Part shown: piece after piece, positions 3,947-62,500 of the stretch
How positions within the stretch are numbered: the first letter of the stretch is position 1
How the letters are laid out: each line of letters begins with the position of its first letter
Assembly (NCBI GenBank): GCA_965644315.1
Contig: CBFFRQ010000081.1
Location: 124,001-188,000, forward strand
Direction of reading: 5' to 3'
Length of the DNA stretch: 64,000 nucleotides
From: Caecitellus pseudoparvulus
Taxonomy: Eukaryota > Protista > Bigyra: Bicosoecida
Position numbers and translations under genes: made by a program
Notes under the pieces: model-generated
Told to the model about the DNA's origin: nothing
The model's input: the letters and a program-made list of their open reading frames with translations, nothing else
Database searches by the model: none

Positions 3947-6320
3947 ATGAAGCTGCACAGTTTCGTTCTTCTGGTCTGCCTGTTGTCCGTGGCGTGGGGC
4001 ATGGAGGTGCCGGCGCACCAGCTCCGTAAAACGGTGCGTGCGCTGGGCCGAAGCGAGCCTCCGCACTGCGCCGCGTGCTCACGAACGCCTGCTGCCACGG
4101 TGCCCGGCACAGTTCAAGGGCGCTGTCGGGGTGATGAACTTGGAGGGGCAACTGTACGCGTCCATTCAGGACCTCGGCGCGGAGGTGGGCTCCGTGCTGA
4201 AGCTGAACGCCAGTGCCGTGTGGGTGACGGTGCGGGCTTCGGCCGTGACGAGCCTGTGCAACCCAGGCGCTGTGCTGCTGAACGCCACCGGCACCATCAG
4301 CGTGTCGCCTGAGCTAATGGGGGACATCCAGCAAGTGTGTGCCCTGACTTGTGACGACGTGGATGGCTTCGCAGACAGGCAGGCGTGCCGCCTGGCGCTG
4401 GGGCGTCGCAGCGTCGGCGACATCATGCGAGACGTGATCGGGGGCGGTTTCCAGTGCGAGGACCTGACGACTCCAACGTACGATTTCCCGCTGCTGGACA
4501 AGGTTGTGGAGATTCCTGCCCTGCGGCAGGCCCTGGGGGCCGCCTCTGCCTTTGACCCCACCGTGCTGCGCCTGGGCGTGTCAGATTTCCTGCTGGCCAC
4601 ACCTGAGCCGGTGCTGCAGGTGATTGGGCGGGTGCTGCGCTTCACTGGCACTGACCTGTCGGCATACGTGAAGAACTTCAGGGTCATGTCCACCGGCGTG
4701 CAGATGGACCTGTGGTCGGACATTGACGTCCTGAACACCCGTAGGTCCCGTGTGTGCGACACGTGGGCGGACCTCATGGAAACACGCCTGTTTCTGACAG
4801 TCACTGTGGGCAAACTCCTGGACAAGCTGGGCCTGGACGAGCTGAAGACGTGCCCTGTGGGCCTGGTGGTGTCCCTCGTCGAGCGCGCGCTGGACGCCCT
4901 GAATAGTCGCAGGCAGCGCGAGCTGGGCGTGGACGCCAGCGGGGTGGTGCAGGAGGGTCCGCCTAGCCTGCCGCACGGCATGACCGGCTCAGGCGCCCTG
5001 CTGCACGGGACTCCGCAGCAACTCCTGGCTGCTCTGGAGGGCGGCCTGTCTTGCTCTGCACCCACCTGCCTCGCCTCTGCCGCCCGCCTGGCGTTGAACC
5101 GTGCATTCGCTCTTGTGACGCCGGAGGGGCGAGCTGCCACATCGGCAGCCCTGAAGCAGCTGCGTGCCGAGGCGCAGGAACAGGTGGGGACTGTGCATGA
5201 GGGCGAGGGGCGTGGGCTGCAGGGCGTGCAGCACTTTGCCCTGCTGAACATCAGCAGCAACCTCGTGAACGTGGTGCGGGGCATTCTCGGCCCACGGTCG
5301 AAGTGGCCCACCTTCCTGTCCTTCGACTACCCCGCAACCGGCCTGGGTGTCATCACAGTGGGGCGCCCGGGGCCCACATGCGACATGCTGGCACGCGAGA
5401 TGCAGCTGCGCGTGAGTGGCGCCACGCTGGCCCAGTTGGCGGGGCAGGAACGGCAGCTCGCGGCGGCACTGGCTAGGTGGGTGGTGGCCAAGTGGGGCAT
5501 GGGCATGCCGGGCCTCATGGCCACTCAGTTCCGTGACATTGTCCTGCAGGCGGCAGACGCGCCGTCTGGGCAGCGCTCCCGGCGACTGCAAGGCGCCGAC
5601 CACGTGCTGGTCACATTCAACACCCTGTCTGGGTCAGGCGTGTCGTCTGGCAGGCTGAACGCGGAGCTGCAGGCAGGCGCTCGTAGCGGCGACATGTCGC
5701 TGGCTGTCTCGCCCACCCTCACGCTCACTGTGCACGGCGGCGAAGGCGACACGCAGTGCGACGAGGAAGGCGCCGCGGCCGTCACGTGCGACGACCCCCG
5801 CGCCGCGCAGGACGCCATGGTCGGCGTCGTGGAGGTAGTAGGTAATGACGGCAAGAACGAAGGCACTGCGGAGGTGGATGGCACGGGCGGTGCCTTGCCA
5901 GGAGCAGGCAACGCAGCAGACACGAACACGAACACGAGCAGCTCGCCTTCTGCCGCTGCCACTGCAGGGTGGGCGGTGGCGGGTGTCGCACTGGCCGTCC
6001 TGCTCGCTGCAGTGGTGTTCCTGGCCCTGGCTGTGGCTGGCCAGCTGCCTCCGGGCCTGACGCCGGCGTGGATCAAGCCGCGTGGAGCGGCAGCACGCCG
6101 CATCGGCCGCATCCGCCAGGCCAACGAGGCCCAGGGCCCAGCGTGTGACGTGGTGGGCATCACGGTGCCACCCGTGGTCGGACGAGGTTCTCGCTCTGGT
6201 TCGCGCTCCGCCCGGCGAGGCAGCACCAGCAGCCGCAAAGGCAGCGTGGGGCGGAACCCGCTTGTGGCCAAGATCGCGCGCTCCGGTTCACGCGGCGGCG
6301 GGTCGGCCGCCGCTCAGTGA
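3947..6320 (+). CDS. Type I membrane protein (signal peptide, Cys-containing ectodomain, SEA-like domain, TM, basic tail)
   Basis: Signal peptide MKLHSFVLLVCLLSVAWG. Intron 4034-4112 (GTGCGT...CACAG) joins it to ORF 4038-6320. TM AGWAVAGVALAVLLAAVVFLALAVA. Contains RGLQ and RRLQ motifs and RNPL in the tail. Confidence 0.8.
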
Positions 6321-6547
6321 AGCGGCGCTGTGCACAGCTAAGTTTGGCTATTTGTACGATTCTTACTCCTCCCGGCGCGGTGGGCGTGGCCAGGGCGCGA
6401 GACCGCCTTGTGCGCCCAAATGCATGCGCTGGCTATGGCATCGCATTCCGCCCGCGAAGCCACAATTGGCCTGCATCCGCCAAGACCCACCACGGCCTGG
6501 CCTGTCTTCGCGGCGGGCGCATCGTCCTAAGCAAGCTGTCGGCTGGC

Positions 6548-9139: not shown

Positions 9140-9169
9140 ATTCAATCAAGTGGCAAAGTTGGGGGTGCA

Positions 9170-12067: not shown

Positions 12068-12162
12068 GGCGCCGCGGAAGCGTTGGCGTGGTGAAGAGGG
12101 CCGAAGCAGTTTCCGCTACGTGCCCCAGCTCTCCTCCGATCGGAATCCTGCAGAGAGCTCAA

Positions 12163-13621: not shown

Positions 13622-13666
13622 AATGATGAGAGTCCTGGCAAAGAATCCACATTCGCACCAGTGACC

Positions 13667-18443: not shown

Positions 18444-18453
18444 TATGCACGGC

Positions 18454-19043
18454 TCAAGTCTGCACAGGAGTGGCTTGGAGGTAGTTCCCTGCCTCCACGA
18501 AAATGAACAGCGCGACTGCCAGGAGGACGGCGATGATCTCCCACACCACCATGAAGCCCATGCCGATGGTGAAGGTCTGTGTGATCTGCTCCACGCGGGG
18601 GGCAGGCGGCGGCGTGGGGTGCTTGCGCGTAGGTGGTTTGCGTGCCAGCACGCACTGGAGGCCTCTCGTCTGTCTCGCCTGCAGCCTTGCGGGGCAGCAA
18701 GCCCAAGAACACCGCAACGATAGCCACAAACATAACGCCAATGAAAATAAACAGCCTGCGCGCCGGAAAGCGGTGGTAGTGGCCCCCGTCACGATGAGCG
18801 GGCGTCGCCAGCGGCCTGCCGTTGGCGGTGAAACGCGCACGCAACGCCAACTCACTTGGGCGAGGGAGTGGCCACGCCGAATCCGCAAATGAACACTGCG
18901 ATGATACCACACAGTAAAACAATGAAGCTACCCGCTCCGAGCGTCATCACACGCGTCCCACTGTCATCGAACACTCCTGGGTTGACATTCTGCAGGTGGC
19001 GTGGCCCGTCGGCCAGGCCTGACTGGCCTGCCAAGTCTTCCAT
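18454..19043 (-). CDS. TMEM218: TMEM218-like ciliary transition-zone membrane protein, 3 exons
   Basis: Introns 18756-18855 and 18586-18655. Three TMs with VMTLGAGSFIVLL, LLPR, ITQTFTIG and YLQATPV, matching the TMEM218 pattern (VLGVGAGVFIL / LFPR / IVDDFFIG / IYAKPL). Confidence 0.72.
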
Positions 19044-23303: not shown

Positions 23304-23396
23304 GGTGCTGGTGTATGCGGCCAGCCTGCCTGTTTGAGGGTCCCAAGCGACAATTCGCATGCCCCAGCGTTGCATGCATTTGGAAAGCGCTTGGCA

Positions 23397-42400: not shown

Positions 42401-45400
42401 GGTGCACACATTCCACTTGCCACCTGGGTCAGCTTTGCCTGGAACATTGAATACGAGCAGCCTTCCCCCGTCTGCTGTGCAGAGCACCTGCTCTGGGTTC
42501 CCTGCTCTTGGGGTCCTGTCTGACCCCAACCAGCCACTCGCAGGGGTCGTAGAATCACCTGAACCGTCATGGATTGATCAAGTGCACCGATTCAACATCG
42601 CCCGCCGTAGGGGCACACCATCTCCACCTGGTCTTTCCTTTGCGCCCACGCTCCGGGCTGGCGGGTCCACTCTGAGCGTCGGCTGGGCTGCCCCACCCAG
42701 TTGGTCAGGCATGCAAGTGGACGGCTTCAATGTGATGATTCAGGCGCTTGGACCCGTTGACAACTCAACTGGTGATGCTGTGGACGCACTGACCTCGGTG
42801 TGGTCTCCTGAGTGCCAATTGGGGCAAGGGCAGGGACTTTGTGCAAAGCTCCCGGCTCAAGGAGCGTGGTGCTCTCACTCATGGCCCGCTGAGAATCTGA
42901 TCCACGTCACTGCTGTAGAGGCATTTGGGTGGCTGCGGGCGAATCAATCTTCAAGTGGGTCCAACCGCCAGTCTGCAAGCCACCCAAGTGTGTCCATTTC
43001 GACGGCACCCGATGGATTGTGGGAGCCGTCTCTTCGTCCCAATTCCATGGACTGCAGCACAGCCCCAGGGGGTGCCTGCTTTCATGCTTCCGCGACGTTT
43101 CCTGTGTGTGCAGGGGTGCAGTACAGCGTGTCAGTTTCAGCGGTCCAGCAGCTGGTTCCAGGGCTGCCGTCCCCCAGCTCCACTGTGCCTGTGCCGCTGC
43201 CAGTAGCTTCTCAAGGCACCCCTCCACCCATACCACCAGCCGCAACTCAGCTGCATCTTGCTCTTGAGAGCGAAACGGCCGTGTCCATGGCAATGATGGC
43301 GAGTATTCCTCTCAATCTGTGCCCTTCCCTGAGCAACACATCTTCAGCCTCCGGCACGTCGCTCCCTGGCTCAGGATCAACGAACTTGCTCGCATTGGTC
43401 GTTCGTGCCCGCACGTTGGCACCACTCTTTCGTGCGGGTATTTCAGAAGGTGCGCGGGTGCTAGCAGGCGGGGCTGAGACAGTCGGTGAGGCGCTGGGGG
43501 CAAGCACATCTGTTTCCGTCTCTGTGGGATCCAGCACGGTCGAGGTCGTGCCCCTCTCGCCAAGCAGCCTTTCAGTTGCCTCTGACAGCAGTGGGCGCTG
43601 GTTCCTACACACTCCGCTGGAGGTTTCGAATCTGCAGCCAAAGCTGGGTGTGGAAGTGGAGGTTGAGCTGCTCTCCCACCTAGATGACGCAGTTTGGAGG
43701 AGCCCTGCGTCGTCTCCTCTGGTACGCACCCCAAAACTCGACATCAGCAGCATCCCAGGGGTGCGGCCGGCGCAGCCCAGGGAGGGCCGCCAACTTCAAA
43801 CCACCCCTTCTTCAGCTTCATCGTCCCCAGCATCTGCCCCTGGGAACGTGTCTGTGCGGAACATCGAGCCTGGGCTCCTCGAGTTGACATGGGAGGACAG
43901 CACCGACCTCGGAGGAGACGCCCTTCTTTGCTACGAGGTCTCCGTCGCTGTGGATGGTCGCGTGAGCCGGCCATGCACTGCGAACTTGACCAGCACAGCC
44001 CATCCAACGTCCGGCGTCCTGTACAAGCCTGCGGAGGGTGCATGTGGGGTGACCTCTGCAGCGTCTGCCGCAGCCCCCCCTGATCCGAACATGCACGCTC
44101 CCTGGGCAGCGTATGGTGCTGGCGTCTTGGGCGGTCTTGAAGGCACGCTCTCGTTGCATGACCAGTACCTTGACTTCCCCCCCCCTCCAGCATCTGTTGG
44201 GCCGGCCCCGCGGGCAGGTGGGTTTGCTGTGGCCGAGTACGGCGAGTACCCGCCCGGATTCGACCCATCTGACCCCATTGCATCCCAAGATGTATCAGGG
44301 CAGAGTATTTACTCGTGGACATCTATTGGGTGTGTTCGGGAGACGTGGGAGCCGGGTCAGGCCTATCTCAGGGCCTCAGGGTGGAGCAATGCCGGTGCTG
44401 AGCCGCTACCACGCCCCGTCGAGCTGAGTATGGTCATGAGTGCAGGCAGCGTGCCAGCCACGATCATGAGTGGCGAGACACGCCTAAACGCGCTGCAGCC
44501 TGTGTCAGGCTCGAGTGTCCAAGGGAATGACACTGGCGACGCTGTGTGCCCTCCGGGAACGCTACCCAGCACAGGCTTGGCTGCAGGCTGCCTCCTGGGG
44601 GCCCCCTCTCCCGGGCCTATGACACCGCGCACGCTTCGACACCGAGTGCAGGTTGACCCGAACACGCTGTACCGTTTCCGCGTGCGAGCTGTGACGTCGC
44701 CTATTGAGGTGGAAACACAACTGGCTCTTCGTTCCGAAGTGGTCAGCAACGCGTCTGATTCCCGAAGGGGCTTGCGGCTTGCCCAGCACGCTTCCCCCCT
44801 CGAGCAAGTAGGGAAGGAGGGTGCAACTGCCCGCAATCGTAGGCGGCTGGCTCTGCGGGTCCCGGGGTTCCAGCTCGGCCCCACTCCCGAGTGCCTGCCG
44901 AACGCCACTGACTGCCTAATTTGGCACACTCAAGCAAGTATTGATTTGTCTCTCGTGCACCGGGGGCCGTCTTCAGACATACTATTTGCACTGACAGGCG
45001 TGCAGGCAGGAGCACTGACGCCAGGTGGCTTCTCTGTGACTCGGGTGGCGGACCCGTCCAGTATCCCTCCAGCCTCGCCAGCGCAGCCCATCATCGACGT
45101 TCAGATTGACATTCGTTTTACAGAAGCAGTCGCACCTCCTGGAAGCGAGTTTCTTTGTGCTGTCGACGCTGCACAGCTGTCAGTCGGTCACTGCCAGGTG
45201 TCGCAGCGGCCGCCATTTCTCGCGACGTTTTCAGCCCAAGACCCTCCGAGTACGCTACCAATATGTACTTCAACACCCCCTTCAGGGTACTCTCCACTCC
45301 CATTGGCTTATGAAGTTATGGACCCCAGCGACCCTGTCATTGGATTGCAGGGTCAACGGCAATTGACTCTCTCTCAGGCACAGGGTCTCCAGCGGGCCAG

Positions 45401-48400
45401 CTCGTACTTTGCCTCTATTGACATGCAGTCCTCCGCTGGCAACTCAAGTATAACTGCCTTGTTTGCAACATTCACGTCCAGGGTCCCAGGCAAGGTGGTG
45501 AATGTGTCCTCGCGGAGCCCTGGCTTAGGCAGGGGGGAGCACGCGTTGCATTTCTGCAGGCCGGCAAACGATGGAGGCTCTTATCCCACGTCTTATGAAA
45601 TTGACCTTGTTCCGAGCTCAGCTGTGAATCCGAACACGACACAGTGCTGTTCTACTGGCTTGCAGAGCCAGAGTGTTTCCCTTCTTGCTCTGCAGGCCCA
45701 GGGTGGAGTGCCTGCTGAGTGCACAACCGCGTATACCCAGTCTGATCTTCGCTCGCCTTTCGACAGCACCTGCCCCATCCACGCCAGCGGTGTCATTGCA
45801 TTGTGCCCAGAGGTGGGGTACACTGTAGGCATTCGACCCGTGTCTGTAGCTGGCCTGGGCATGGTGCGGGCCGAGTCGACTTTCAGCTACACCTGCCCAG
45901 GCAGCCCCATCCCATGCTCAGGTCATGGAACATGTGTAAAGTGGGATGGTGTGTGTGACTGCGATACTTCATGGGGTCTTGACGATTGCTCGGAATTGCT
46001 TGGGGTAGTCATTGATGCCCGGCTGTGGCTGGACGCGGGCGCCCTCATGGGTCTGGGTGGCGTTTCAGGGTTGGTGCTGGACCTCGGCGTTGGTCCCCAG
46101 TTCAGGACGTATGCGCGGAATCTCGTCGTTCATGTGCTCATCGACTCCCTTCTTCGTGCCGTCAACCAACCTGATGCCGAGTGGCAGGCTCTTCTCTCGT
46201 CTGCAGTGTTCGAGTTTGTGTCCACGCGGGTCAGTTCAGGTGAAGCTCTCCCTGGTGAGACAGTTGACACTTGGGGTTCTTTCTCATCAAGGGACCCACC
46301 TCAGCCTGGAACTCCACCAACGTCGCAGGCATTCATTGCTGCCCAAGTTTCCCCGACCCCAACTCTGTCCATTCGCGCAGTGCTCTCCCCGCGTCTCAAT
46401 GTGGCAGCGCACCTTGACCGCGTTGCACTGGAACTTGTTCGACTCATGCACGAGGGCCAAGCTGCCCTCCGCGGCATGGGGATTGTGTCGCTTGCTGTCC
46501 GCGACACCCGACGTGCGGCGCAAGTCAAGCAACGAGAAGTTGTGAATTTGCCACCGCCGACCACGTGTGCCACTCGAGGGACTTGTGCAGCGTGCGCAGA
46601 GGATGCATCCTGTGCTTGGGATTTGCAGCTGCGAGGCTGTGTGGCGGCGCCGTCCTTGTCGGAGCGGGGGTCTCAGCAGGTTCAGCGAGCCTTCCCCGCC
46701 CCAGGCACGGCTGCTCCCGGTGGTGGCACTCCCCTCGCAAGCCAGTTATCGCCCGCACTATCGACGCCCCCAGCGTATGTGTACACACCCCACGCTCGCA
46801 CGTGTGTCAATGACGCTGTGCGGAGGCAGCGTGAAGACATGGATCCGAGCAGCCCATTCACTGCCGAGTGGCGGCACTTGGATGGCAATACTTCTTTTGT
46901 GCGACAGCCAATCGGTACAATGTGGCTGTACGGCATTGACCGTTGCCAATGTCCAGTAGCGTGTGAGGCACTGTCCCAGCGCCTGGCCTTTCTGAGTGAA
47001 GGCGCGGGAGCAACGAGTGATGCTTCTGGCGGCTGTGCAGCCTGCGCGGCGCGGCCCGATTGCTTGTTCTGCCAAACTACGCAGACATGCTATGACCACG
47101 CAGATGACCGGCTGACATCGACCGACTTCCTAGAGAGCGCGTGCCCTGCCGTGAGCCTCTTCCCCAGGCAGCTGGAGTCTGGAAAACTGGTGACAGGCTG
47201 GGTTTCGCCGACAGCCCAGTCTTGGGCGGGTGGGTGTGGCAGCTCGGTGGTCTGCAGAGAAGAGTGCACAGCATGCGATGGCAAGACTTCCCAGGCAACG
47301 TGTGTGGACGACCTGGCCTGTGCATGGTGTGCGGATCCAAACCTCCCCGCGGGTGGGAAGTGTGCGGAAGGAAATGCCGCGGGATGGTATGATGGCGAGT
47401 CCTGCGCAGGGCAGTATTTCTATGGCTCCGTCACTGTTTCTTGCACGCTTGGCACCAACGTTGGAGCCACGCTGTCTCAGTGCCAGCTGTGTACTCTGGC
47501 GGGGGGCTCTCCCGGAGCGGTGGCCACCCCAGACACCCTAGCTTGTGGCTGGTGCCCAACGACGAAAACTTGCATGGTATCTGACTTGGCTTCCGAAGCG
47601 CCTCTGCTCAGTCATTGCCCAAGCAACGGTAGTTTGAGCGTGATGGGCATTTCCGACCCCAACGAGATGTCGGCCCAACAGACAGTGCTGGCTTCCTTGC
47701 TCCTGCCCCCTGTATCTGCCGGCATCCAACAACTACATTCCCTTCCGACTTCGACAACTCAAGCGCCGGACGAGGAAAGAGACAGTCTTCGCCAGTCACC
47801 ATTCGTTAAGCGCGCTGACTCAGGCACTTGCCCGGTGACAGCTTCCTTGCGTTGCAGCCAGCAAACTCTTTGTTCATCCTGCCTCAGCACTGACGTATCC
47901 GGACTGCAGGGTGCAGGGCCAGGCGACAAATGTCACTGGTGCCCGTCGTCTGTTTCGCCAGGGGGCAGGGTGGCAGGTCGTGACGATTCTGTTCAACTTG
48001 CTGCTGGGCAATCAGGCGGCCGCTGCATGCTGAGCAGTACGGCTGCGTCCGAGTGCCCTGTCGAAGTCTCAGACAGCTTCTGTGTGACTGGAGGGTGTGC
48101 TGAAGGCGCATCTCTGCTTCTCTCATTCACAAATGGATCGCTTCAGCTGGGCTCTGCCGGGCAGAGCCCTTGTACAGGTCGAGGTGTCGGCGCTGTTCTC
48201 ACCCCACGACTGACGTTGATCGAAGAGCCTGTGCAAGGGTCTGCCACGCTCGGGGGCCGATGGGACAGGCCGCTGCAGCTTCGTGGCAAGCAAGTGCACG
48301 ACCGAGGTTTGCAGAGTTCAGCGACCTGCACCCCGCTGGCGGCGGGCGCTCCAGTGCCCACGGTCTACGCCCCGGGATCTCAGTGCTCATGGATCATTGC

Positions 48401-50081
48401 TCCGACTGAGATTGACACGGCCACAGGACAAGGAGTGCGCAATAGCCACATCACCTTGCAGCTGACCCATGTCGATTTAGCTCCTGGGGACACTCTGTCA
48501 CTAACGGTGTCAGGGGACGCCAGACAGCCAGATGCCGAGAACACCATTCTTGTGCTCGCTGGAACATCTTTGCCTGGCTCAGAAGTTGTGCGTGGCTTGG
48601 GCACTGCGCAGGAGATCGAAGCGTGGGTAGAGCAAGTCTCTGGGTTGCAAGCAGCAGGAGCTGACACGTCGGCCTTGAAGCCACCCTCTCACGAGTCATT
48701 CGACAGTACTTGGAAGGATGTGAGCTTGACAACATCCAGTGGGTACATGCGGGTGTTCTTGAATGGACAGAATGGGGGTGGAGCAGGGATTCGTGGTGTT
48801 TACAATAGCCACAGGCCAGAGTCTGTGAACTATTACTTTGTCGCCGCGGTAGCCGTGAGCGTCTCTGCAGGGGTGATTGTCCTTGCATGCATCGGCCACA
48901 GGTACTGGCAGTATCGCAGGCGCGCTGCAGATGCCCGGGAGGCAGAGCGGGAGCTCGGCCTGTTGGACACTACTTCTGATGAGGAAGAAACTGATGGCGA
49001 TGACTCAGAGCTCGCTGTTCCCGCGTCAGTGCTGGTTGCCCTACCGACTTTTAGATTCGACTCAGACAAGATGGCACAGACCCCGCTTAAGGGCTTGGAG
49101 AAAGAAGACCTTACGTGCGCCATTTCGCTTGCCGAGTACTCGGAGGGAGACGCGATTACCGTACTTCCTTGTGGGCACCACTTCCTCCATGAGAGCATTT
49201 TACATTGGTTGAAGAGCAAGAAAATGTGCCCCATGTGTAAACGGGACGTATTAGAGACTTGGGTTTTGTATTCTTCCAAGGCCGGTGCTGATGATGGACC
49301 TGGCGGAGCGCAGGATCCGCTCGCTCTGGGCCCTGGTGTGCACAGGCATGTGAACCCTGAGCTCAAGTCCCAGGCAGATCGGGAACGCGACTTTGAGCTT
49401 GGGGTTGAGTCCACTGCACAGCGTCGCTCCCGAACCTTTTCCAACGCCTCTTCCCGCGGGGAAGGTGGTGCAGGCGAGCCTGACACTGCTCTGAGCGCCA
49501 ACATGTCCAGGACGCTGCCTGAAAGCAGCACTAGAGCGGCCACAGGGTTTGGAGCAGCAGCTCCTCGCAGGGGGCGGCGGATGCGCCCTGTTGTACTGTC
49601 TCCAAGTAGTGAACGGGGTTCTTCATCTGAAGACGAGTTTGTTCCTGTGTCTATTCCGAACCCACTCAGGAGTGCAGTTCATCACGGCTCGCAAGCAACC
49701 CTTGCAAGTGGGCCGCTTCCTCGACGACGAGGTCCAGAGGAAGGTAGCTCGACAGAGTCCCATGTCTCCACTGTCAGTTCACTCGGCAGCATCGTTGACT
49801 CAATGTCAGGAACTGCTGTCATCTCCATTCCCTCTCCCATCCGCCAACAGCGTCCGGGTCCTGCAACTGGCCAGCTACGTCAGCCACGCCACCAAGGCCG
49901 CATGGCAGCCCCGGAGCAGGGTTCCATCATTGACGCTCATCCAGCTTCACCACCTTCGCAGCGGTCAGTGCTTGCCATTCCTGCCGGCGCCGCATCAGGG
50001 CAGCGGCGGCAAGGGGCTGTCAGCGACGTGCGTGACCAAGTTAACCCCATGATGGTGCGCACGCATGGCCGAGCTCGCTGA
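36471..50081 (+). CDS. Giant (~4500 aa) type I receptor with cytosolic RING-H2-variant E3-like domain
   Basis: Signal-peptide-like exon (MFGLMSMQILACLAAFGASVAP) joined by introns 36538-36604 and 36632-36702. FG-GAP-like blades (LAVGAPGA, FGA...LVVAAP, GAVYVF, LYIGSP), CPAGTFS Cys-rich repeats, many FN3 (L.P.T.Y...V), EGF CSGHGTC...CDCDTSWGLDDCS, PSI repeats (CxxC...CxWC), CUB (YAPGSQCSWII), TM ~48830-48900, RING 49116-49241. Confidence 0.88.
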
Positions 50082-50561: not shown

Positions 50562-53065
50562 TCAAGCTCGCCCTGGGCTTGCCTTCATGAGGGGATTGCG
50601 GGTGTCGAAAGATTTGCTCACAGGAGCAGCAGCAGGGGCTTCAGGCGCCTCCTCATCGGAGTGCACACGCTGGGCATGCTTCTTGGGCGCGGCGGAGCGC
50701 CGTTTGTAGACAACCACAGCAGCGACGCCAACGGCTACCGCAGCAAGTGCGGCAACGATTCCACCCACAGCGCCAGCTGAGATGCCTGTACCTGGTGCAC
50801 CACCTCTGGGAGAAGCAGAGCCCCCTGATTCATCAACGGAGCCTGACTGAGACACCGTTGCAGAGCCAGAGACAGTTGCCTCTTGAAACGTGGCTGTCCA
50901 CTCGGAACTGCTGCCAGCCTCTTCTGATGCAGCAACATGCAGAGTGGACGCGAAAGTCCCATCTTGAACGGACCTATCAACGGTACCAGCGATGTCTTCC
51001 GCATCGTCCTCGTCATCGACATTGATTGTGACGTCCACCTCCAAGCCGCCATCTTGGAGGTGTCGGCGAAGTGCAGCTGAGTCACGAGAGCAAGGCTTTC
51101 GCAGCTCAACAATTACATCTTCGACCGATACACCTGCAATGCGTGCAACAACCTTGGCGATGAATGCGCGGATGCGATCATCTGAGGGAGCGTTCTCGCA
51201 CGAAACACCCTGAACCTGCATAGTAACGGAAACAACTGGGCGTGGCCGTGTGGTGGCCGACGGGCGAGGACGCTTAGGCGTAGGAGATGCAGTGCGGTCG
51301 GGGTCGCCGCCGTTGCCGTTGCCACCAGCGGAATCGCGTTTTGGCGTCGCAGATGCAGAAGGGCGGGTCGTATCGGGCTTGGGCGTAGGAGATGCAGTGC
51401 GGTCGGGGTCGCCGCCGTTGCCGCCAGTGGAGTCGTGCTTAGGCGTAGGAGATGCAGTGCGGTCAGGGTCGCCGCCGTTGCCGCCAGTGGAGTCGTGCTT
51501 GGGCGTAGGAGATGCAGTGCGGTCAGGGTCGCCGCCGTTGCCGCCAGTGGAGTCGTGCTTGGGCGTAGGAGATGCAGTGCGGTCAGGGTCGCCGCCGTTG
51601 CCGCCAGTGGAGTCGTGCTTGGGCGTAGGAGATGCAGTGCGGTCGGGGTCGCCGCCGTTGCCGCCAGTGGAGTCGTGCTTGGGTGTAGGGGATGCAGTGC
51701 GGTCGGGGTCGCCGCCGTTGCCGCCAGTGGAGTCGTGCTTGGGTGTAGGGGATGCAGTGCGGTCGGGGTCGCCGCCGTTGCCGCCAGTGGAGTCAGGGCG
51801 AGTGGTAGCCGTGGCTGAGGGCTGGGTGCCGTCACCACCGTTGCCGCCAGTGGAGTCAGGGCGAGTGGTAGCCGTGGCTGAGGGCTGGGTGCCGTCACCA
51901 CCGTTGCCGCCAGTGGAGTCAGGGCGAGTGGTAGCCGTGGCTGAGGGCTGGGTGCCGTCACCACCGTTGCCGCCAGTGGTGTCAGGGCGAGTGGTAGCCG
52001 TGGCTGAGGGCTGGGTGCCGTCACCGCCGTTGCCGCCAGTGGAGTCAGGGCGAGTGGTAGCCGTGGCTGAGGGCTGGGTGCCGTCACCACCGTTGCCGCC
52101 AGTGGAGTCAGGGCGAGTGGTAGCCGTGGCTGAGGGCTGGGTGCCGTCGCCGCCGTTGCCGCCAGTGGAGTCAGGGCGAGTGGTAGCCGTGGCTGAGGGC
52201 TGGGTGCCGTCACCGCCGTTGCCGCCAGTGGAGTCAGGGCGAGTGGTAGCTGTGGCTGAGGGGTGGGTGCCGTCGCCGCCGTTGCCGCCAGCTGCGTTGT
52301 GAGGCGAGGGGGTGGCTGAGGGCTGGGTGCCGTCACCGCCGTTGCCGCCAGTGGAGTCAGGGCGAGTGGTAGCCGTGGCTGAGGGCTGGGTGCCGTCACC
52401 GCCGTTGCCGCCAGTGGAGTCAGGGCGAGTGGTAGCCGTGGCTGAGGGCTGGGTGCCGTCACCGCCGTTGCCGCCAGTGGAGTCAGGGCGAGTGGTAGCC
52501 GTGGCTGAGGGCTGGGTGCCGTCACCACCGTTGCCGCCAGTGGAGTCGGGGCGAGTGGTAGCCGTGGCTGAGGGCTGGGTGCCGTCACCGCCGTTGCCGC
52601 CAGCTGCGTTGTGAGGCGAGGGCGTGGCAGACCGGTCAGGGTCACCGCCAGCGGGGTCTGGGTGTTTGGATGGAGATGGAGTCGGAGCAGGTTGGCTTGG
52701 GTCGTTTAATTGCCGCTGCGCACGGGTCGCGCCGTTGATTAGCGCAGCGTGAATGGTGGAAACGCCAATGTGAGCTGCCTCGGTTTGGCGTGTTGGAAGG
52801 GTATCCGCAGCACCCGCAGCAAGGTTTGCCAGACAAGCAAAGGTGAAACCTAGCGCAGCTAAAGTGAGCCAGAGGCCTGTGAAAGTAAAGATAATGAATG
52901 TGTTCACTCATTTGGCGCTTCGCCTGAGTCGACGCTTGCAAGTAGCACGAGTTCAACCAGATTGATGCAACATGCAGGTTGAGAGCAAACGCGGGCTGAG
53001 CGGAAGACCCGGCGAAAGCAGCACCTACCATGTCTCTTGGAAGCTGGCCGTGAATGAGTGACCAT
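50562..53065 (-). CDS. Mucin-like type I membrane protein A (repeats, SEA-like domain, TM)
   Basis: Exon 53065-53029 (MVTHSRPASKRH), intron 52877-53028 (GTAGGT...TCACAG, phase 1), signal peptide GLWLTLAALGFTFACLA, RQL, repeats, SEA-like domain, TM AVGGIVAALAAVAVGVAAVVVY, tail with RNPL. Confidence 0.85.
51375..52615 (-). repeat. Coding tandem repeats: ~7 x 60 bp (GGNGGDPDRTASPTPKHDST) and ~13 x 63 bp (GGNGGDGTQPSATATTRPDST)
   Basis: Directly visible: consecutive 60-nt lines from 51421 to 51780 are nearly identical, and a 63-nt period follows. Confidence 0.95.
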
Positions 53066-53520: not shown

Positions 53521-56500
53521 TTACTTGGTCCAAGCAGTCCCGTACATGTCTTGCAGCGGAGCGGGAGGAGGACGGGCACCTTGATTCCACTGCCGATGAG
53601 CAGGCTTTGACTTGATGAACATTGGGTTCTCATCATGTTCGTCAGCAGCCCCTGCCCTCATGTAGCGCGGCAAGGATATCGGGTTCGGAACACTGAAAGG
53701 ACGCCTCCTGGGGGGCCGCGGGTACATATCAGGCGAGGGAGGTGCAGCTGCGTGTGGAATCTGTCTTGGCGGCAGTGCTGGCTCGCTGCCCCGGCTTTTG
53801 CGGAGCCTGGCCACGCCAGCAACAACAGCTAACGTAATCAGAACCACGCCGACTACCAGCAGCACTACACCGACAGCTGGAAAGCTATCCTCAGGTGCTG
53901 GTGATGACGCTTGCGCTGGTGGAGCGCTCTCAGCCACAGCAGCTGTGGTGCCAGTCACGCTCACAGATTCAAACACCTTCACAAGGTCGCTTCCTGTACC
54001 TGCTTCATCAGCTGCTGAACTTTTCAGGATGTTGACCATACTGCCGTCAGAGACAGACCTGTCCACGGTCGTTGCCAGGGACCTGGCTTCAGTCAAATCA
54101 GCAGCATTGATGGTGACATTAGCCTCAAGAGTCTCTATCTGAAGAGCCCGTCGCAGACCAGACCTTTGCGTTGAACATGGCCGCGTCAAAACCACAAGCA
54201 CAGCTTCAACGCTCACGCGGGCAACCCGCGCGACCGCCCTAGCGATGATGCGGATCAAAAATGAAGGTCTCGGAGCTGTGGCACAATTAACCCCTATGAC
54301 TTGCATCGCAACATTCACAGCTGCAACACCCGGTGAGGGAGCTGCAATCACTGTCGCTTGAGGAGTAACAGATGCGGAAACAGATGCCGTCGCAGAGGAT
54401 GAGGGTGAAGCCGTGAAGGATGCAGTCATTGACGGCGAGGAGCTGGAAGACACAAAGCTAGAAACGCTTGCTGTTGGCGTAGCGCTCACACTGCTCGTGG
54501 GTGTACCCGACACTGTCCCCGACGGTGACGACGACGGCGTGCCAGAGCTGGATGGCGTGCCAGATGGACTGCCCGTCGGCGTGCCGCTCACACTGCTCGT
54601 GGGTGTACCCGACACTGTCCCCGACGGTGACGACGACGGCGTGCCAGAGCTGGATGGCGTGCCAGATGGACTGCCCGTCGGTGTGCCGCTCACACTGCTC
54701 GTGGGTGTACCCGACACTGTCCCCGACGGTGACGACGACGGCGTGCCAGAGCTGGATGGCGTGCCAGATGGACTGCCCGTCGGTGTGCCGCTCGCACTGC
54801 TCGTGGGTGTACCCGACACTGTCCCCGACGGTGACGACGACGGCGTACCAGAGCTGGATGGCGTGCCAGATGGACTGCCCGTCGGTGTGCCGCTCGCACT
54901 GCTCGTGGGTGTACCCGACACTGTCCCCGACGGTGACGACGACGGCGTGCCAGAGCTGGATGGCGTGCCAGATGGACTGCCCGTCGGCGTGCCGCTCACA
55001 CTGCTCGTGGGTGTACCCGACACTGTCCCCGACGGTGACGACGACGGCGTACCGCTCACACTGCTCGTGGGTGTACCCGACACTGTCCCCGACGGTGACG
55101 ACGACGGCGTGCCAGAGCTGGATGGCGTGCCAGATGGACTGCCCGTCGGTGTGCCGCTCACACTGCTCGTGGGTGTACCCGACACTGTCCCCGACGGTGA
55201 CGACGACGGCGTGCCAGAGCTGGATGGCGTGCCAGATGGACTGCCCGTCGGTGTGCCGCTCACACTGCTCGTGGGTGTACCCGACACTGTCCCCGACGGT
55301 GACGACGACGGCGTGCCAGAGCTGGATGGCGTGCCAGATGGACTGCCCGTCGGTGTGCCGCTCACACTGCTCGTGGGTGTACCCGACACTGTCCCCGACG
55401 GTGACGACGACGGCGTGCCAGAGCTGGATGGCGTGCCAGATGGACTGCCCGTCGGTGTGCCGCTCACACTGCTCGTGGGTGTACCCGACACTGTCCCCGA
55501 CGGTGACGACGACGGCGTACCAGAGCTGGATGGCGTGCCAGATGGACTGCCCGTCGGTGTGCCGCTCACACTGCTCGTGGGTGTACCCGACACTGTCCCC
55601 GACGGTGACGACGACGGCGTGCCAGAGCTGGATGGCGTGCCAGATGGACTGCCCGTCGGTGTGCCGCTCACACTGCTCGTGGGTGTACCCGACACTGTCC
55701 CCGACGGTGACGACGACGGCGTGCCAGAGCTGGATGGCGTGCCAGATGGACTGCCCGTCGGTGTGCCGCTCACACTGCTCGTGGGTGTACCCGACACTGT
55801 CCCCGACGGTGACGACGACGGCGTGCCAGAGCTGGATGGCGTGCCAGATGGACTGCCCGTCGGTGTGCCGCTCACACTGCTCGTGGGTGTACCCGACACT
55901 GTCCCCGACGGTGACGACGACGGCGTGCCAGAGCTGGATGGCGTGCCAGATGGACTGCCCGTCGGTGTGCCGCTCACACTGCTCGTGGGTGTACCCGACA
56001 CTGTCCCCGACGGTGACGACGACGGCGTGCCAGAGCTGGATGGCGTGCCAGATGGACTGCCCGTCGGTGTGCCGCTCACACTGCTCGTGGGTGTACCCGA
56101 CACTGTCCCCGACGGTGACGACGACGGCGTGCCAGAGCTGGATGGCGTGCCAGATGGACTGCCCGTCGGTGTGCCGCTCACACTGCTCGTGGGTGTACCC
56201 GACACTGTCCCCGACGGCGACGACGACGGCGTGCCAGAGCTGGATGGCGTGCCAGATGGACTGCCCGTCGGCGTGCCGCTCACACTGCTCGTGGGTGTAC
56301 CCGACACTGTCCCCGACGGTGACGACGACGGCGTGCCAGAGCTGGATGGCGTGCCAGATGGACTGCCCGTCGGCGTGCCGCTCACACTGCTCGTGGGTGT
56401 ACCCGACACTGTCCCCGACGGCGACGACGACGGCGTGCCAGAGCTGGATGGCGTGCCAGATGGACTGCCCGTCGGTGTGCCGCTCACACTGCTCGTGGGT

Positions 56501-59500
56501 GTACCCGACACTGTCCCCGACGGCGACGACGACGGCGTGCCAGAGCTGGATGGCGTGCCAGATGGACTGCCCGTCGGTGTGCCGCTCACACTGCTCGTGG
56601 GTGTACCCGACACTGTCCCCGACGGTGACGACGACGGCGTGCCAGAGCTGGATGGCGTGCCAGATGGACTGCCCGTCGGTGTGCCGCTCACACTGCTCGT
56701 GGGTGTACCCGACACTGTCCCCGACGGTGACGACGACGGCGTGCCAGAGCTGGATGGCGTGCCAGATGGACTGCCCGTCGGCGTGCCGCTCACACTGCTC
56801 GTGGGTGTACCCGACACTGTCCCCGACGGTGACGACGACGGCGTACCAGAGCTGGATGGCGTGCCAGATGGACTGCCCGTCGGCGTGCCGCTCACACTGC
56901 TCGTGGGTGTACCCGACACTGTCCCCGACGGCGACGACGACGGCGTACCGCTCACACTGCTCGTGGGTGTACCCGACACTGTCCCCGACGGTGACGACGA
57001 CGGCGTGCCAGAGCTGGATGGCGTGCCAGATGGACTGCCCGTCGGCGTGCCGCTCACACTGCTCGTGGGTGTACCCGACACTGTCCCCGACGGCGACGAC
57101 GACGGCGTGCCAGAGCTGGATGGCGTGCCAGATGGACTGCCCGTCGGTGTGCCGCTCACACTGCTCGTGGGTGTACCCGACACTGTCCCCGACGGTGACG
57201 ACGACGGCGTGCCAGAGCTGGATGGCGTGCCACATGGACTGCCCGTCGGCGTGCCGCTCACACTGCTCGTGGGTGTACCCGACACTGTCCCCGACGGTGA
57301 CGACGACGGCGTACCAGAGCTGGATGGCGTGCCAGATGGACTGCCCGTCGGTGTGCCGCTCGCACTGCTCGTGGGTGTACCCGACACTGTCCCCGACGGT
57401 GACGACGACGGCGTGCCAGAGCTGGATGGCGTGCCAGATGGACTGCCCGTCGGTGTGCCGCTCACACTGCTCGTGGGTGTACCCGACACTGTCCCCGACG
57501 GTGACGACGACGGCGTACCAGAGCTGGATGGCGTGCCAGATGGACTGCCCGTCGGTGTGCCGCTCACACTGCTCGTGGGTGTACCCGACACTGTCCCCGA
57601 CGGTGACGACGACGGCGTACCAGAGCTGGATGGCGTGCCAGATGGACTGCCCGTCGGTGTGCCGCTCGCACTGCTCGTGGGTGTACCCGACACTGTCCCC
57701 GACGGCGACGACGACGGCGTGCCGCTCACACTGCTCGTGGGTGTACCCGACACTGTCCCCGACGGTGACGACGACGGCGTACCAGAGCTGGATGGCGTGC
57801 CAGATGGACTGCCCGTCGGCGTGCCGCTCACACTGCTCGTGGGTGTACCCGACACTGTCCCCGACGGCGACGACGACGGCGTGCCAGAGCTGGATGGCGT
57901 GCCAGATGGACTGCCCGTCGGTGTGCCGCTCACACTGCTCGTGGGTGTACCAGACACTGTCCCCGACGGTGACGACGACGGCGTGCCGCTCACACTGCTC
58001 GTGGGTGTACCCGACACTGTCCCCGACGGTGACGACGACGGCGTGCCAGAGCTGGATGGCGTGCCAGATGGACTGCCCGTCGGTGTGCCGCTCACACTGC
58101 TCGTGGGTGTACCCGACACTGTCCCCGACGGTGACGAGGACGGCGTACCGCTCACACTGCTCGTGGGTGTACCCGACACTGTCCCCGACGGTGACGACGA
58201 CGGCGTGCCAGAGCTGGATGGCGTGCCAGATGGACTTCCCGTCGGCGTGCCGCTCACACTGCTCGTGGGTGTACCCGACACTGTCCCCGACGGCGACGAC
58301 GACGGCGTGCCAGAGCTGGATGGCGTGCCAGATGGACTGCCCGTCGGTGTGCCGCTCACACTGCTCGTGGGTGTACCCGACACTGTCCCCGACGGTGACG
58401 ACGACGGCGTGCCAGAGCTGGATGGCGTGCCAGATGGACTGCCCGTCGGCGTGCCGCTCACACTGCTCGTGGGTGTACCCGACACTGTCCCCGACGGTGA
58501 CGACGACGGCGTGCCAGAGCTGGATGGCGTGCCAGATGGACTGCCCGTCGGTGTGCCGCTCACACTGCTCGTGGGTGTACCCGACACTGTCCCCGACGGC
58601 GACGACGACGGCGTGCCAGAGCTGGATGGCGTGCCAGATGGACTGCCCGTCGGTGTGCCGCTCACACTGCTCGTGGGTGTACCCGACACTGTCCCCGACG
58701 GTGACGACGACGGCGTGCCAGAGCTGGATGGCGTGCCAGATGGACTGCCCGTCGGTGTGCCGCTCACACTGCTCGTGGGTGTACCCGACACTGTCCCCGA
58801 CGGTGACGACGACGGCGTGCCAGAGCTGGATGGCGTGCCAGATGGACTGCCCGTCGGCGTGCCGCTCACACTGCTCGTGGGTGTACCCGACACTGTCCCC
58901 GACGGTGACGACGACGGCGTACCAGAGCTGGATGGCGTGCCAGATGGACTGCCCGTCGGTGTGCCGCTCACACTGCTCGTGGGTGTACCCGACACTGTCC
59001 CCGACGGCGACGACGACGGCGTACCGCTCACACTGCTCGTGGGTGTACCCGACACTGTCCCCGACGGTGACGACGACGGCGTGCCAGAGCTGGATGGCGT
59101 GCCAGATGGACTGCCCGTCGGTGTGCCGCTCACACTGCTCGTGGGTGTACCCGACACTGTCCCCGACGGCGACGACGACGGCGTACCGCTCACACTGCTC
59201 GTGGGTGTACCCGACACTGTCCCCGACGGTGACGACGACGGCGTGCCAGAGCTGGATGGCGTGCCAGATGGACTGCCCGTCGGTGTGCCGCTCACACTGC
59301 TCGTGGGTGTACCCGACACTGTCCCCGACGGTGACGACGACGGCGTACCGCTCACACTGCTCGTGGGTGTACCCGACACTGTCCCCGACGGTGACGACGA
59401 CGGCGTACCGCTCACACTGCTCGTGGGTGTACCCGACACTGTCCCCGACGGTGACGACGACGGCGTGCCAGAGCTGGATGGCGTGCCAGATGGACTGCCC

Positions 59501-62500
59501 GTCGGTGTGCCGCTCGCACTGCTCGTGGGTGTACCCGACACTGTCCCCGACGGTGACGACGACGGCGTGCCAGAGCTGGATGGCGTGCCAGATGGACTGC
59601 CCGTCGGTGTGCCGCTCGCACTGCTCGTGGGTGTACCCGACACTGTCCCCGACGGTGACGACGACGGCGTGCCAGAGCTGGATGGCGTGCCAGATGGACT
59701 GCCCGTCGGTGTACCGCTCACACTGCTCGTGGGTGTACCCGACACTGTCCCCGACGGTGACGACGACGGCGTGCCAGAGCTGGATGGCGTGCCAGATGGA
59801 CTGCCCGTCGGCGTGCCGCTCACACTGCTCGTGGGTGTACCCGACACTGTCCCCGACGGTGACGAGGACGGCGTACCGCTCACACTGCTCGTGGGTGTAC
59901 CCGACACTGTCCCCGACGGTGACGACGACGGCGTGCCAGAGCTGGATGGCGTGCCAGATGGACTGCCCGTCGGTGTACCGCTCGCACTGCTCGTGGGTGT
60001 ACCCGACACTGTCCCCGACGGTGACGACGACGGCGTGCCAGAGCTGGATGGCGTGCCAGATGGACTGCCCGTCGGTGTGCCGCTCACACTGCTCGTGGGT
60101 GTACCCGACACTGTCCCCGACGGTGACGACGACGGCGTGCCAGAGCTGGATGGCGTGCCAGATGGACTGCCCGTCGGTGTGCCGCTCACACTGCTCGTGG
60201 GTGTACCCGACACTGTCCCCGACGGTGACGACGACGGCGTGCCAGAGCTGGATGGCGTGCCAGATGGACTGCCCGTCGGCGTGCCGCTCACACTGCTCGT
60301 GGGTGTACCCGACACTGTCCCCGACGGTGACGACGACGACGTACCGCTCACACTGCTCGTGGGTGTACCCGACACTGTCCCCGACGGTGACGACGACGGC
60401 GTGCCAGAGCTGGATGGCGTGCCAGATGGACTGCCCGTCGGTGTGCCGCTCACACTGCTCGTGGGTGTACCCGACACTGTCCCCGACGGTGACGACGACG
60501 GCGTGCCGCTCGCACTGCTCGTGGGTGTACCCGACACTGTCCCCGACGGTGACGACGACGGCGTGCCAGAGCTGGATGGCGTGCCAGATGGACTGCCCGT
60601 CGGTGTGCCGCTCACACTGCTCGTGGGTGTACCCGACACTGTCCCCGACGGTGACGACGACGGCGTACCGCTCACACTGCTGGATGGCGTGCCCGAGACT
60701 GTCCCCGAGGGTGACGCCGTCGGCGTGCCGCTCACACTGCTCGTGGGTGTACCCGACACTGTCCCCGACGGTGACGACGACGGCGTGCCAGAGCTGGATG
60801 GCGTGCCAGATGGACTGCCCGTCGGTGTGCCGCTCGCACTGCTCGTGGGTGTACCCGACACTGTCCCCGACGGTGACGACGACGGCGTGCCAGAGCTGGA
60901 TGGCGTGCCAGATGGACTGCCCGTCGGCGTGCCGCTCACACTGCTCGTGGGTGTACCCGACACTGTCCCCGACGGTGACGACGACGGCGTGCCAGAGCTG
61001 GATGGCGTGCCAGATGGACTGCCCGTCGGTGTGCCGCTCACACTGCTCGTGGGTGTACCCGACACTGTCCCCGACGGTGACGACGACGGCGTACCAGAGC
61101 TGGATGGCGTGCCAGATGGACTGCCCGTCGGTGTGCCGCTCGCACTGCTCGTGGGTGTACCCGACACTGTCCCCGACGGTGACGACGACGGCGTGCCAGA
61201 GCTGGATGGCGTGCCAGATGGACTGCCCGTCGGTGTGCCGCTCACACTGCTCGTGGGTGTACCCGACACTGTCCCCGACGGCGACGACGACGGCGTGCCA
61301 GAGCTGGATGGCGTGCCAGATGGACTGCCCGTCGGTGTGCCGCTCACACTGCTCGTGGGTGTACCCGACACTGTCCCCGACGGTGACGACGACGGCGTGC
61401 CAGAGCTGGATGGCGTGCCAGATGGACTGCCCGTCGGTGTGCCGCTCGCACTGCTCGTGGGTGTACCCGACACTGTCCCCGACGGTGACGACGACGGCGT
61501 GCCAGAGCTGGATGGCGTGCCAGATGGACTGCCCGTCGGTGTGCCGCTCGCACTGCTCGTGGGTGTACCCGACACTGTCCCCGACGGTGACGACGACGGC
61601 GTGCCGCTCACACTGCTCGTGGGTGTACCCGACACTGTCCCCGACGGTGACGACGACGGCGTGCCAGAGCTGGATGGCGTGCCAGATGGACTGCCCGTCG
61701 GCGTGCCGCTCGCACTGCTCGTGGGTGTACCCGACACTGTCCCCGACGGTGACGACGACGGCGTGCCAGAGCTGGATGGCGTGCCAGATGGACTGCCCGT
61801 CGGTGTGCCGCTCACACTGCTCGTGGGTGTACCCGACACTGTCCCCGACGGTGACGACGACGGCGTGCCAGAGCTGGATGGCGTGCCAGATGGACTGCCC
61901 GTCGGTGTGCCGCTCACACTGCTCGTGGGTGTACCCGACACTGTCCCCGACGGTGACGACGACGGCGTACCGCTCGCACTGCTCGTGGGTGTACCCGACA
62001 CTGTCCCCGACGGCGACGACGACGGCGTGCCAGAGCTGGATGGCGTGCCAGATGGACTGCCCGTCGGTGTGCCGCTCACACTGCTCGTGGGTGTACCCGA
62101 CACTGTCCCCGACGGTGACGACGACGGCGTGCCAGAGCTGGATGGCGTGCCAGATGGACTGCCCGTCGGTGTGCCGCTCACACTACTCGTGGGTGTACCC
62201 GACACTGTCCCCGACGGTGACGACGACGGCGTGCCAGAGCTGGATGGCGTGCCAGATGGACTGCCCGTCGGTGTGCCGCTCACACTGCTCGTGGGTGTAC
62301 CCGACACTGTCCCCGACGGTGACGACGACGGCGTGCCAGAGCTGGATGGCGTGCCAGATGGACTGGATGTTGGTGAGGTTGAGGCGGTGGCACTCAGCTA
62401 TCGAAGGGATGGACTATGGTTTACAGAGGTGACTTCTTGAGTATACGTTGTGTGGCTTGATTTTGTAGTTTGCAGCTCGACACTGTTGTTTGGCCCAAGC

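What the first reader, a model, noticed from the sequence alone, without database searches (positions are those of the whole stretch)
5211..62403. Recurrent RxL(Q) motif at domain boundaries of secreted and membrane proteins
Seen: RGLQ (5211) and RRLQ (5580) in the 3947-6320 protein; RHLQ (~18990) before the first TM of TMEM218; RQLQ (43788), RRRL (~44838) and RGLQ (48303, just before CUB) in the giant receptor; RQL (~52710) and RHLQ (~51055) in mucin A; RALQ (~54140) and R*L (62395-62403) in mucin B. Known: RxL-type cleavage occurs in diatom wall proteins (RXL), oomycete RxLR effectors and apicomplexan PEXEL/TEXEL. Inference: a general RxL^Q maturation pathway for surface proteins in this organism; a P1' Gln could cyclise to pyroglutamate.
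Basis: partly seen in the sequence, partly recalled or inferred. Interest (0 to 1): 0.72.

Follow-up and report, generated by a model that had tools for sequence, protein, structure and literature searches.

The report
RxLQ cut site in SEA loops
Surface proteins of this marine single-celled eukaryote carry an over-represented Arg-x-Leu-Gln motif, three times in the same loop of a predicted SEA domain (the loop where animal mucins and Notch are cut), so it is likely a protease maturation site akin to those of diatoms, oomycetes and malaria parasites, though no cutting has been shown.

Summary
All ten listed sites are in frame at the stated places. RxLQ occurs 9 times in 5,347 lumenal residues (1.2 expected; 0 of 2,000 shuffles reach 9) and 2 times in 6,957 other residues (1.7 expected). 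Bare RxL is not enriched (36 vs 28). The best sites are not domain boundaries. In gene 3947-6320 and mucins A and B, RxLQ aligns in one column, in the beta2-beta3 loop of a juxtamembrane domain. Its AlphaFold model (pLDDT 83) best matches animal SEA-type domains (Z 8.5-6). That loop is cut in MUC1, Notch2 and GPR126, but the GSVVV and furin motifs are absent here. R and L are invariant in 7 of 7 aligned domains. Both mucins also carry a diatom-style RxL 30-40 residues after the signal peptide. Mucin B's R*L reads Arg-Lys-Leu in a relative's contig. Likely mechanism: a secretory-pathway maturase of the plasmepsin V/ASP5 type cuts after Leu, leaving interlocked SEA halves. Cleavage, protease, proteome-wide reach and pyroglutamate are untested, as no genome is held. 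RxL maturation is known; the SEA-loop use was not found in 10 searches or in earlier scan notes.

The parts
3947..6320 (+). Gene 1, type I membrane protein: signal-peptide exon 3947-4033, predicted GT-AG intron 4034-4112, TM about 5973-6029
   Evidence: intron predicted from sequence, not RNA-tested; close relative P0003
5211..5222 (+). RGLQ in a linker of gene 1; conservation in distant relatives untested
5370..5738 (+). SEA-like domain of gene 1 (assigned by alignment to the modelled mucin A domain, 17-20% identity)
5580..5591 (+). RRLQ in the beta2-beta3 loop of the gene 1 SEA-like domain
18856..19043 (-).
18990..19001 (-). RHLQ, residues 15-18, before TM1; lumenal position inferred
36642..50081 (+). 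Giant receptor ORF (4,479 codons): FN3, PSI, CUB-like (by eye), TM about 48837-48893, cytosolic RING
   Evidence: 3' part covered by run X7
41211..41222 (+). RVLQ, apparently in the first strand of an FN3-like repeat; probably chance
   Evidence: strand assignment by eye from a recalled FN3 pattern
43788..43799 (+). RQLQ in a linker just before an FN3 repeat
   Evidence: weak fn3 match starting just downstream
44838..44849 (+). RRRL(A); not separable from chance, since bare RxL is not enriched
48267..48314 (+). RPLQ and RGLQ in a low-complexity stretch in or before a CUB-like domain near the TM
   Evidence: CUB not confirmed
50562..53065 (-). Mucin A: exon 1 53065-53029, predicted intron 53028-52877, signal peptide, pro-peptide, repeats, SEA-like domain, TM
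   Evidence: polyadenylated contig end at 50315 in run X7
52704..52715 (-). RQL(N) about 30 residues after the signal peptide of mucin A, before the repeats (diatom RXL-domain layout)
50838..51251 (-). SEA-like domain of mucin A (modelled)
51054..51065 (-). RHLQ in the beta2-beta3 loop (model residues 63-66)
53521..62556 (-). Mucin B: signal peptide from 62556, pro-peptide, in-frame stop at 62400-62398, about 2,600 aa of S/T/P/G repeats, SEA-like domain, TM
53923..54336 (-). SEA-like domain of mucin B (41-44% identical to that of mucin A)
54139..54150 (-). RALQ in the beta2-beta3 loop of mucin B
62395..62403 (-). R-stop-L about 38 residues after the signal peptide of mucin B; a contig of run X5 reads Arg-Lys-Leu here

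Best explanation
RxLQ is over-represented in the lumenal parts of this window's membrane proteins and sits in one aligned loop of three predicted SEA domains; it is likely a site cut after the Leu by a secretory-pathway aspartyl protease of the plasmepsin V/ASP5 type. The same signal would be used in two layouts. (1) About 30-40 residues after the signal peptide, where a cut would remove a pro-peptide (both mucins). (2) Inside the ectodomain, above all in the SEA beta2-beta3 loop, where a cut would leave two halves interlocked in one sheet. The large mucin stalk would then be tethered non-covalently to a membrane stub and could be shed by force, as in MUC1, Notch and GPR126. Shown: the motif, its enrichment, its aligned position, conservation of R and L, and expression of mucin A. 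Predicted: the SEA fold. Inferred: cleavage, the register after Leu, the protease class, retention of the halves, and any pyroglutamate at the new Gln or Glu terminus.
For: Enrichment confined to lumenal segments: 9 vs 1.21, against 2 vs 1.72 elsewhere; it holds without mucin B (8 vs 1.21), without the giant ORF (5 vs 0.38) and in the giant ORF alone (4 vs 0.85, p=0.011). In 7 domains at 17-41% identity only 4 columns are invariant, and R63 and L65 are two of them; Q66 is kept in 6 of 7. The model places them in the least confident stretch (pLDDT 59-68 for residues 51-70), between beta2 (46-52) and beta3 (69-77). The top six fold matches are ectodomains of SorCS2, dystroglycan, TMPRSS6 and Trop2, and MUC16 and Gpr126 SEA domains are also listed. 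That loop is the one cut in MUC1, Notch2 and GPR126 (10.1101/805515, passages). P0004 is found with the loop masked (86.9 bits) and still has R-x-L. In run X5 the mucin B pro-peptide keeps R and L through synonymous changes while 4 of the 7 codons before R change residue. ASP5 cuts internal RRL sites, including one in an inserted element and one before a TM (PMC6212819, passages). P. infestans RXLR is cut after Leu (PMC11754927, passages).
Against: No cleavage data. No genome, so no protease gene was sought. One window only; mucins A and B are paralogues. The homologues were retrieved with a profile that contained the motif; with the loop masked P0006 and P0007 fall to E 0.045 and 2.7, and P0013 (8.5 bits) is within its shuffle range. 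Only one fold match reaches Z 8, and the tool warns that Z under 8 can be a common arrangement; Foldseek gave nothing at E<=0.001, and Pfam SEA is not hit. The model puts a short helix at 58-64, so L65 may pack structurally. Bare RxL is not enriched. A strong Gln preference is not part of the PEXEL, TEXEL or RXLR consensus. The non-SEA RxLQ sites have no distant homologues to test.
Confidence: 0.5

Rival explanations
1. The motif is a cleavage site, but for a site-1 protease (SKI-1/S1P, subtilase family) cutting after the fourth residue. Gln would then be P1 and no pyroglutamate would form.
For: The enriched unit is four residues, RxLQ, not RxL. The recalled S1P consensus R-x-(L/I/V)-Z, cut after Z, fits. 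S1P is a widespread Golgi enzyme (recalled).
Against: P0004 has Glu at the fourth position, which S1P is recalled to disfavour. RxI/V is not enriched (33 vs 32.4). The RxL cuts mapped in oomycetes and apicomplexans fall after Leu.
Confidence: 0.2
2. The motif is conserved but not cut: it is a structural cap of the SEA loop, or a lumenal sorting or binding signal.
For: AlphaFold draws a short helix at 58-64 next to L65. SEA domains need not be cut; zebrafish Gpr126 lacks the furin site.
Against: The same motif recurs outside SEA domains, in linkers and before a TM. The loop has the lowest confidence in the model. A fourth SEA-like stretch in the giant ORF (about 46000-46540, judged by eye) lacks it.
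Confidence: 0.2
3. The recurrence is a chance and selection effect in an R/L-rich proteome, inflated by paralogy.
For: The motif was picked after looking. Bare RxL is at background. RVLQ 41211 and RRRL 44838 are probably chance, and about 1 of the 9 RxLQ is expected by chance.
Against: Only 2 of 150 shuffles produce any A.BC pattern this extreme. There is no excess in cytosolic proteins or in the six frames (0.45 per 1,000 codons vs 1.69 lumenal). The column is aligned across domains at 17-41% identity. The codons differ among sites, so it is not a DNA repeat.
Confidence: 0.07

Closest known systems
Toxoplasma ASP5 / TEXEL (RRL) maturation; Plasmodium plasmepsin V / PEXEL
   Same: R-x-L in secretory proteins. 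ASP5 sites can be internal, in insertions or before a TM. PMV is proposed as a more general secretory maturase (PMC10900883, abstract).
   Different: The second residue varies (RRL in 1 of 9 lumenal RxLQ), the fourth is Gln, and the fifth is E/Q/D in only 1 of 9. The organism appears free-living (inferred), and the sites lie in SEA loops.
Diatom RXL domain (silaffins, Sin1, SAPs)
   Same: Signal peptide followed by about 30 residues ending in RxL; both mucins have this layout.
   Different: Described as found only in biosilica-associated proteins, with the protease unknown. Here it is on mucin-like proteins, with additional internal sites.
Oomycete RXLR-EER effectors
   Same: RxL within about 40 residues of the signal peptide, cut after Leu.
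   Different: The fourth residue is not Arg at the pro-peptide sites, the proteins are membrane-anchored, and most sites lie far from the N-terminus.
Cleaved SEA domains of MUC1, Notch2, GPR126 and KIAA1549
   Same: Juxtamembrane ferredoxin-like domain behind an S/T-rich stalk; the candidate site is in the beta2-beta3 loop.
   Different: No GSVVV autoproteolysis motif and no furin site; RxLQ instead. No Pfam SEA hit.

Membership tests
SEA domain | Ferredoxin-like beta-alpha-beta-beta-alpha-beta fold | tested here: met
   Model pLDDT 83.2, pTM 0.75: E5-14, H24-39, E46-52, E69-77, H81-97, E126-135. Best match SorCS2 957-1065, Z 8.5, rmsd 2.7, 95 aligned; MUC16 SEA Z 6.3, rmsd 3.8, 106 aligned. 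That the SorCS2, dystroglycan, TMPRSS6 and Trop2 ranges are SEA domains is recalled.
SEA domain | Extracellular, membrane-proximal position in a surface protein | tested here: met
   All three domains lie just before the single TM.
SEA domain | Sequence match to Pfam PF01390 | tested here: not met
   0 of 7 domains hit SEA at E<=1; no SEA chain in the PDB profile search. The Atlas lists SEA clusters only at lead level, 0.80-0.81.
Autocleaving SEA (MUC1 type) | GSVVV-type motif in the beta2-beta3 loop | tested here: not met
   Pattern absent from the three window domains.
Furin-cleaved SEA (Notch2, GPR126) | (R/K)-x-K-R or R-x-x-R ending at the cut | tested here: not met
   The invariant residues are R-x-L, read from the alignment.
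Diatom RXL domain | Signal peptide plus about 30 residues ending in RxL | tested here: met
   Mucin A RQL and mucin B R*L (Arg-Lys-Leu in run X5); signal peptides judged by eye.
Diatom RXL domain | Proteolytic removal; association with biosilica | not testable with these tools
   Needs protein work.
PEXEL | RxLx(E/Q/D) within about 40 residues of the signal peptide | tested here: not met
   Fifth residue is E/Q/D in 1 of 9 lumenal RxLQ, and none of the 9 follows a signal peptide closely. Mucin A's pro-peptide RQLND does fit the pentamer.
TEXEL / ASP5 substrates | RRL | tested here: not met
   RRL in 1 of 9 lumenal RxLQ; RRL overall 4 vs 1.48 expected, p=0.06.
TEXEL / PEXEL systems | A plasmepsin V/ASP5-type protease in the genome that cuts the site | not testable with these tools
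   No genome held.
Oomycete RXLR effectors | RxLR after the signal peptide of a soluble effector | tested here: not met
   The pro-peptide sites read RQLN and R*LS, and the proteins have TMs. EER was not searched.
SKI-1/S1P substrates | Cut after the fourth residue of R-x-(L/I/V)-Z (consensus recalled) | not testable with these tools
   The register cannot be read from sequence.

The most novel reading that the evidence does not exclude
Free-living marine flagellates run a general RxL maturase that plays the part of furin: it trims pro-peptides and cuts SEA domains in the Notch/MUC1 loop to make force-sheddable surface mucins. The diatom RXL, oomycete RXLR and apicomplexan PEXEL/TEXEL motifs would be specialisations of this older housekeeping pathway.
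Probability: 0.3. Interest if true: 0.75.

Novelty: new variant of a known kind. Interest (0 to 1): 0.5.

Why it matters
The protease that cuts diatom RXL and oomycete RXLR motifs is unidentified, and the origin of these motifs is open. A housekeeping RxL signal on ordinary surface proteins of an apparently free-living flagellate would point to an ancestral role and give small, testable substrates. It would also add a third way, beside self-cleavage and furin, of cutting the same SEA loop.

Tried and rejected
Whole-proteome test: no genome held. Single-sequence model (pLDDT 56) gave MIF/tautomerase matches; rejected as low-confidence and replaced by the 7-sequence model. Foldseek on the better model: nothing at E<=0.001. 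Homologue searches: none for the TMEM218-like exon (41 candidates) or the giant ORF region 2300-4210 (1,421 candidates, only proteins of 2,463-7,839 aa); 4 hits of 7,999 candidates with A2. P0005 matched only the motif stretch in a repeat and was dropped from all alignments; P0001-P0003 are near-copies of the window's own proteins and count as no independent support. Metagenome scans for held-out genes: 0 of 142 with A4 and 1 weak calpain-like locus of 161 (L001, not analysed); viral contigs 0 of 29. Exact look-up of 10 window proteins: 0 of 10, so the lineage was not fixed. TAG as a sense codon: 0 of 14 long ORFs end in TAG, but a 4,479-codon ORF has no in-frame TAG and run X5 reads Lys at the mucin B site, so recoding is rejected; X1, X7 and X12 did not cover that site. 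RxxL (30 vs 28.3) and KxL (4 vs 5.2) are not enriched. The cyclin-docking RxL was rejected because the sites are lumenal. No intron joints were seen over 36200-51260, so the giant's 5' exon is unresolved. Pei and Grishin 2017 is not held. No complex prediction was run: two halves of one domain would pass by likeness.
Full report
Setting. The window is gene-dense, about 63% GC, with few short GT-AG introns (two 67-base introns are shown by spliced contigs). Its holders are marine runs. No whole genome is held. A near-identical copy of the mucin A C-terminus is filed at NCBI as Symbiodinium sp. KB8. From recalled knowledge, this gene layout is not dinoflagellate-like. I infer a co-cultured heterotrophic flagellate, perhaps Cafeteria-like; KB8 is also reported to hold mavirus-like genes (PMC10120064, passages). 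The lineage was not tested successfully.

Observation. All 10 sites are in frame at the stated places, and their codons differ, so no DNA repeat is involved. I split the window's ORFs by hand into 9 lumenal segments (5,347 aa, mucin repeats excluded) and 16 other segments (6,957 aa). RxLQ occurs 9 times against 1.21 expected in the first set (0 of 2,000 within-segment shuffles reach 9) and 2 times against 1.72 in the second. Of 35 lumenal LQ pairs, 9 have R two residues before (binomial p 8e-5); in the other set 2 of 44 do. RxLQ ranks first among all A.BC patterns, ahead of the glycosylation pattern NxS-S, and 2 of 150 shuffles gave any pattern as extreme. The Fisher test between the sets gives p=0.011. 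Against this, bare RxL is not enriched (36 vs 28.25, p=0.08), the motif was chosen after looking, and the two mucins are paralogues.

Three kinds of site. (A) SEA loop. RRLQ 5580, RHLQ 51065 and RALQ 54150 fall in one column when the three juxtamembrane domains are aligned. A profile search of 1.84 billion representatives gave 7 hits: 3 near-copies of the window's proteins, 1 repeat matching only the motif (dropped), and P0004, P0006 and P0007. P0013 came from a second search. In the 7-row alignment (17-41% identity) the invariant columns are A36, R63, L65 and G98, and Q66 is kept in 6 of 7. Because the profile held the motif, I masked the loop and rescored: P0004 86.9 bits (E 1e-19), P0006 29.9, P0007 24.2, P0013 8.5; the shuffle maxima were 6.1, 8.4, 5.7 and 11.1. 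So one homologue is clearly motif-independent (it reads R-S-L-E), two exceed their shuffles but are not significant library-wide, and one is unsupported.

The fold. The alignment-based model has pLDDT 83.2 and a ferredoxin-like order of elements, with the motif (63-66) between beta2 and beta3 in its least confident stretch. Among 48,161 chains, 140 reach Z 5 and 1 reaches Z 8. The first six rows are SorCS2 (8.5), dystroglycan (7.4, 6.9), TMPRSS6 (7.2) and Trop2 (7.0, 6.9); entries for MUC16 SEA (6.3), Gpr126 (6.1) and a transmembrane-protease SEA (5.7) follow among unrelated ferredoxin-like folds. Foldseek found nothing at E<=0.001, and Pfam SEA is not hit. The call is therefore 'SEA-like by fold and position', not Pfam membership. 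The Gpr126 preprint states that MUC1, Notch2 and GPR126 are all cut in the loop between strands 2 and 3, and that the GPR126 fragments likely stay associated until pulled apart (10.1101/805515, passages). KIAA1549 is a mucin-like protein with a furin site in its last SEA-like domain (PMC13570299, passages). Bacterial SEAL domains autocleave and their halves stay together (PMC10556640, passages). The window's domains have neither a GSVVV motif nor a furin motif as the conserved element.

(B) Pro-peptide sites. Both mucins have a signal peptide, 30-40 residues, and then R-x-L just before the repeats. This is the layout of the diatom RXL domain (PMC5525289 and PMC5647440, passages). In mucin B the middle codon is a stop. 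A contig of run X5 reads Arg-Lys-Leu there, with synonymous changes in the R and L codons, while 4 of the 7 codons before R change residue. That table was cut to its 40 best-supported rows and rests on one contig, which may be an allele or a paralogue and has indels upstream. The window's copy is thus a nonsense variant or an assembly error, and the residue after L is Ser (Asn in mucin A), not Gln.

(C) Other sites. RGLQ 5211, RQLQ 43788 (just before a weak fn3 match), RPLQ and RGLQ at 48267-48314, and RHLQ 19001 lie in linker-like stretches. They contribute to the enrichment (giant ORF alone 4 vs 0.85), but no distant homologue was found to test them. RVLQ 41211 and RRRL 44838 are probably chance. 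Run X7 behaves as polyadenylated RNA: it shows a poly(T) end at 50315 below mucin A and covers parts of the giant ORF, including 48088-48406.

Mechanism. The most likely reading is a secretory-pathway protease recognising R-x-L, with a preference for Gln next at internal sites, and cutting after Leu. The mapped RxL cuts in related lineages fall after Leu: P. infestans RXLR (PMC11754927, passages), plasmepsin V, described as possibly a general secretory maturase (PMC10900883, abstract and outline), and ASP5, which cuts internal RRL sites in an inserted element and before a TM (PMC6212819, passages). Oomycetes and a diatom have related aspartyl proteases (PMC3116508, passages), though tested P. 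infestans candidates showed no or weak activity. In the SEA loop a cut would leave two halves sharing one sheet. All of this is inferred; I give it 0.5, an S1P-type cut after Gln 0.2, an uncut structural or sorting role 0.2, and chance 0.07.

Novelty. I found no report of RxL in a SEA loop, or in a free-living heterotrophic flagellate, in 10 full-text searches (listings and abstract starts, apart from the papers named above). Five look-ups in earlier scan notes found no such finding; one note concerned bacterial SEA-like modules with the GS motif. Pei and Grishin 2017, the main survey of divergent SEA domains, is not held and may already mention it; no supplements were read. Verdict: a real, ordered feature and a new variant of a known kind, untested at the bench; interest 0.5.

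Noticed in passing
window 36642-50081 +: A 4,479-codon single-pass receptor joins an FN3/PSI/CUB-like ectodomain to a cytosolic RING finger (Pfam zf-RING_2, E 8e-9). By recall this resembles an attractin/MEGF8-type ectodomain and its partner ubiquitin ligase in one chain. No homologue among proteins of 2,463-7,839 aa.
   Followed up: partly
C-terminal tails of gene 1, giant ORF, mucins A and B: All 4 type I membrane proteins have Asn-Pro-Leu/Met 11-35 residues from the C-terminus; P0004 has Asn-Pro-Val. Possibly a sorting or endocytosis signal.
   Followed up: no
window 62398-62400 -: In-frame stop in the mucin B pro-peptide, ahead of a 2,958-codon open frame; a relative's contig has Lys.
   Followed up: partly
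14 long ORFs across the window: Stop codons are 12 TGA, 2 TAA and 0 TAG.
   Followed up: partly
window 12471-13310 -: A 279-codon ORF without Pfam match in a stretch of 53% GC against about 63% around it; possibly foreign DNA.
   Followed up: no
window 63364-64000 +: A spliced transcript with two 67-base GT-AG introns (joints 63568-63636 and 63730-63798) in runs X7 and X12; not annotated here.
   Followed up: no
P0002 (CAE7911791.1): A near-identical copy of mucin A's C-terminus is filed as Symbiodinium sp. KB8, although the window's gene layout does not look dinoflagellate; that assembly may contain a second organism.
   Followed up: partly
window 46000-46540 +: A further SEA-like-looking stretch in the giant ORF (by eye) lacks RxLQ; no Pfam match.
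   Followed up: no
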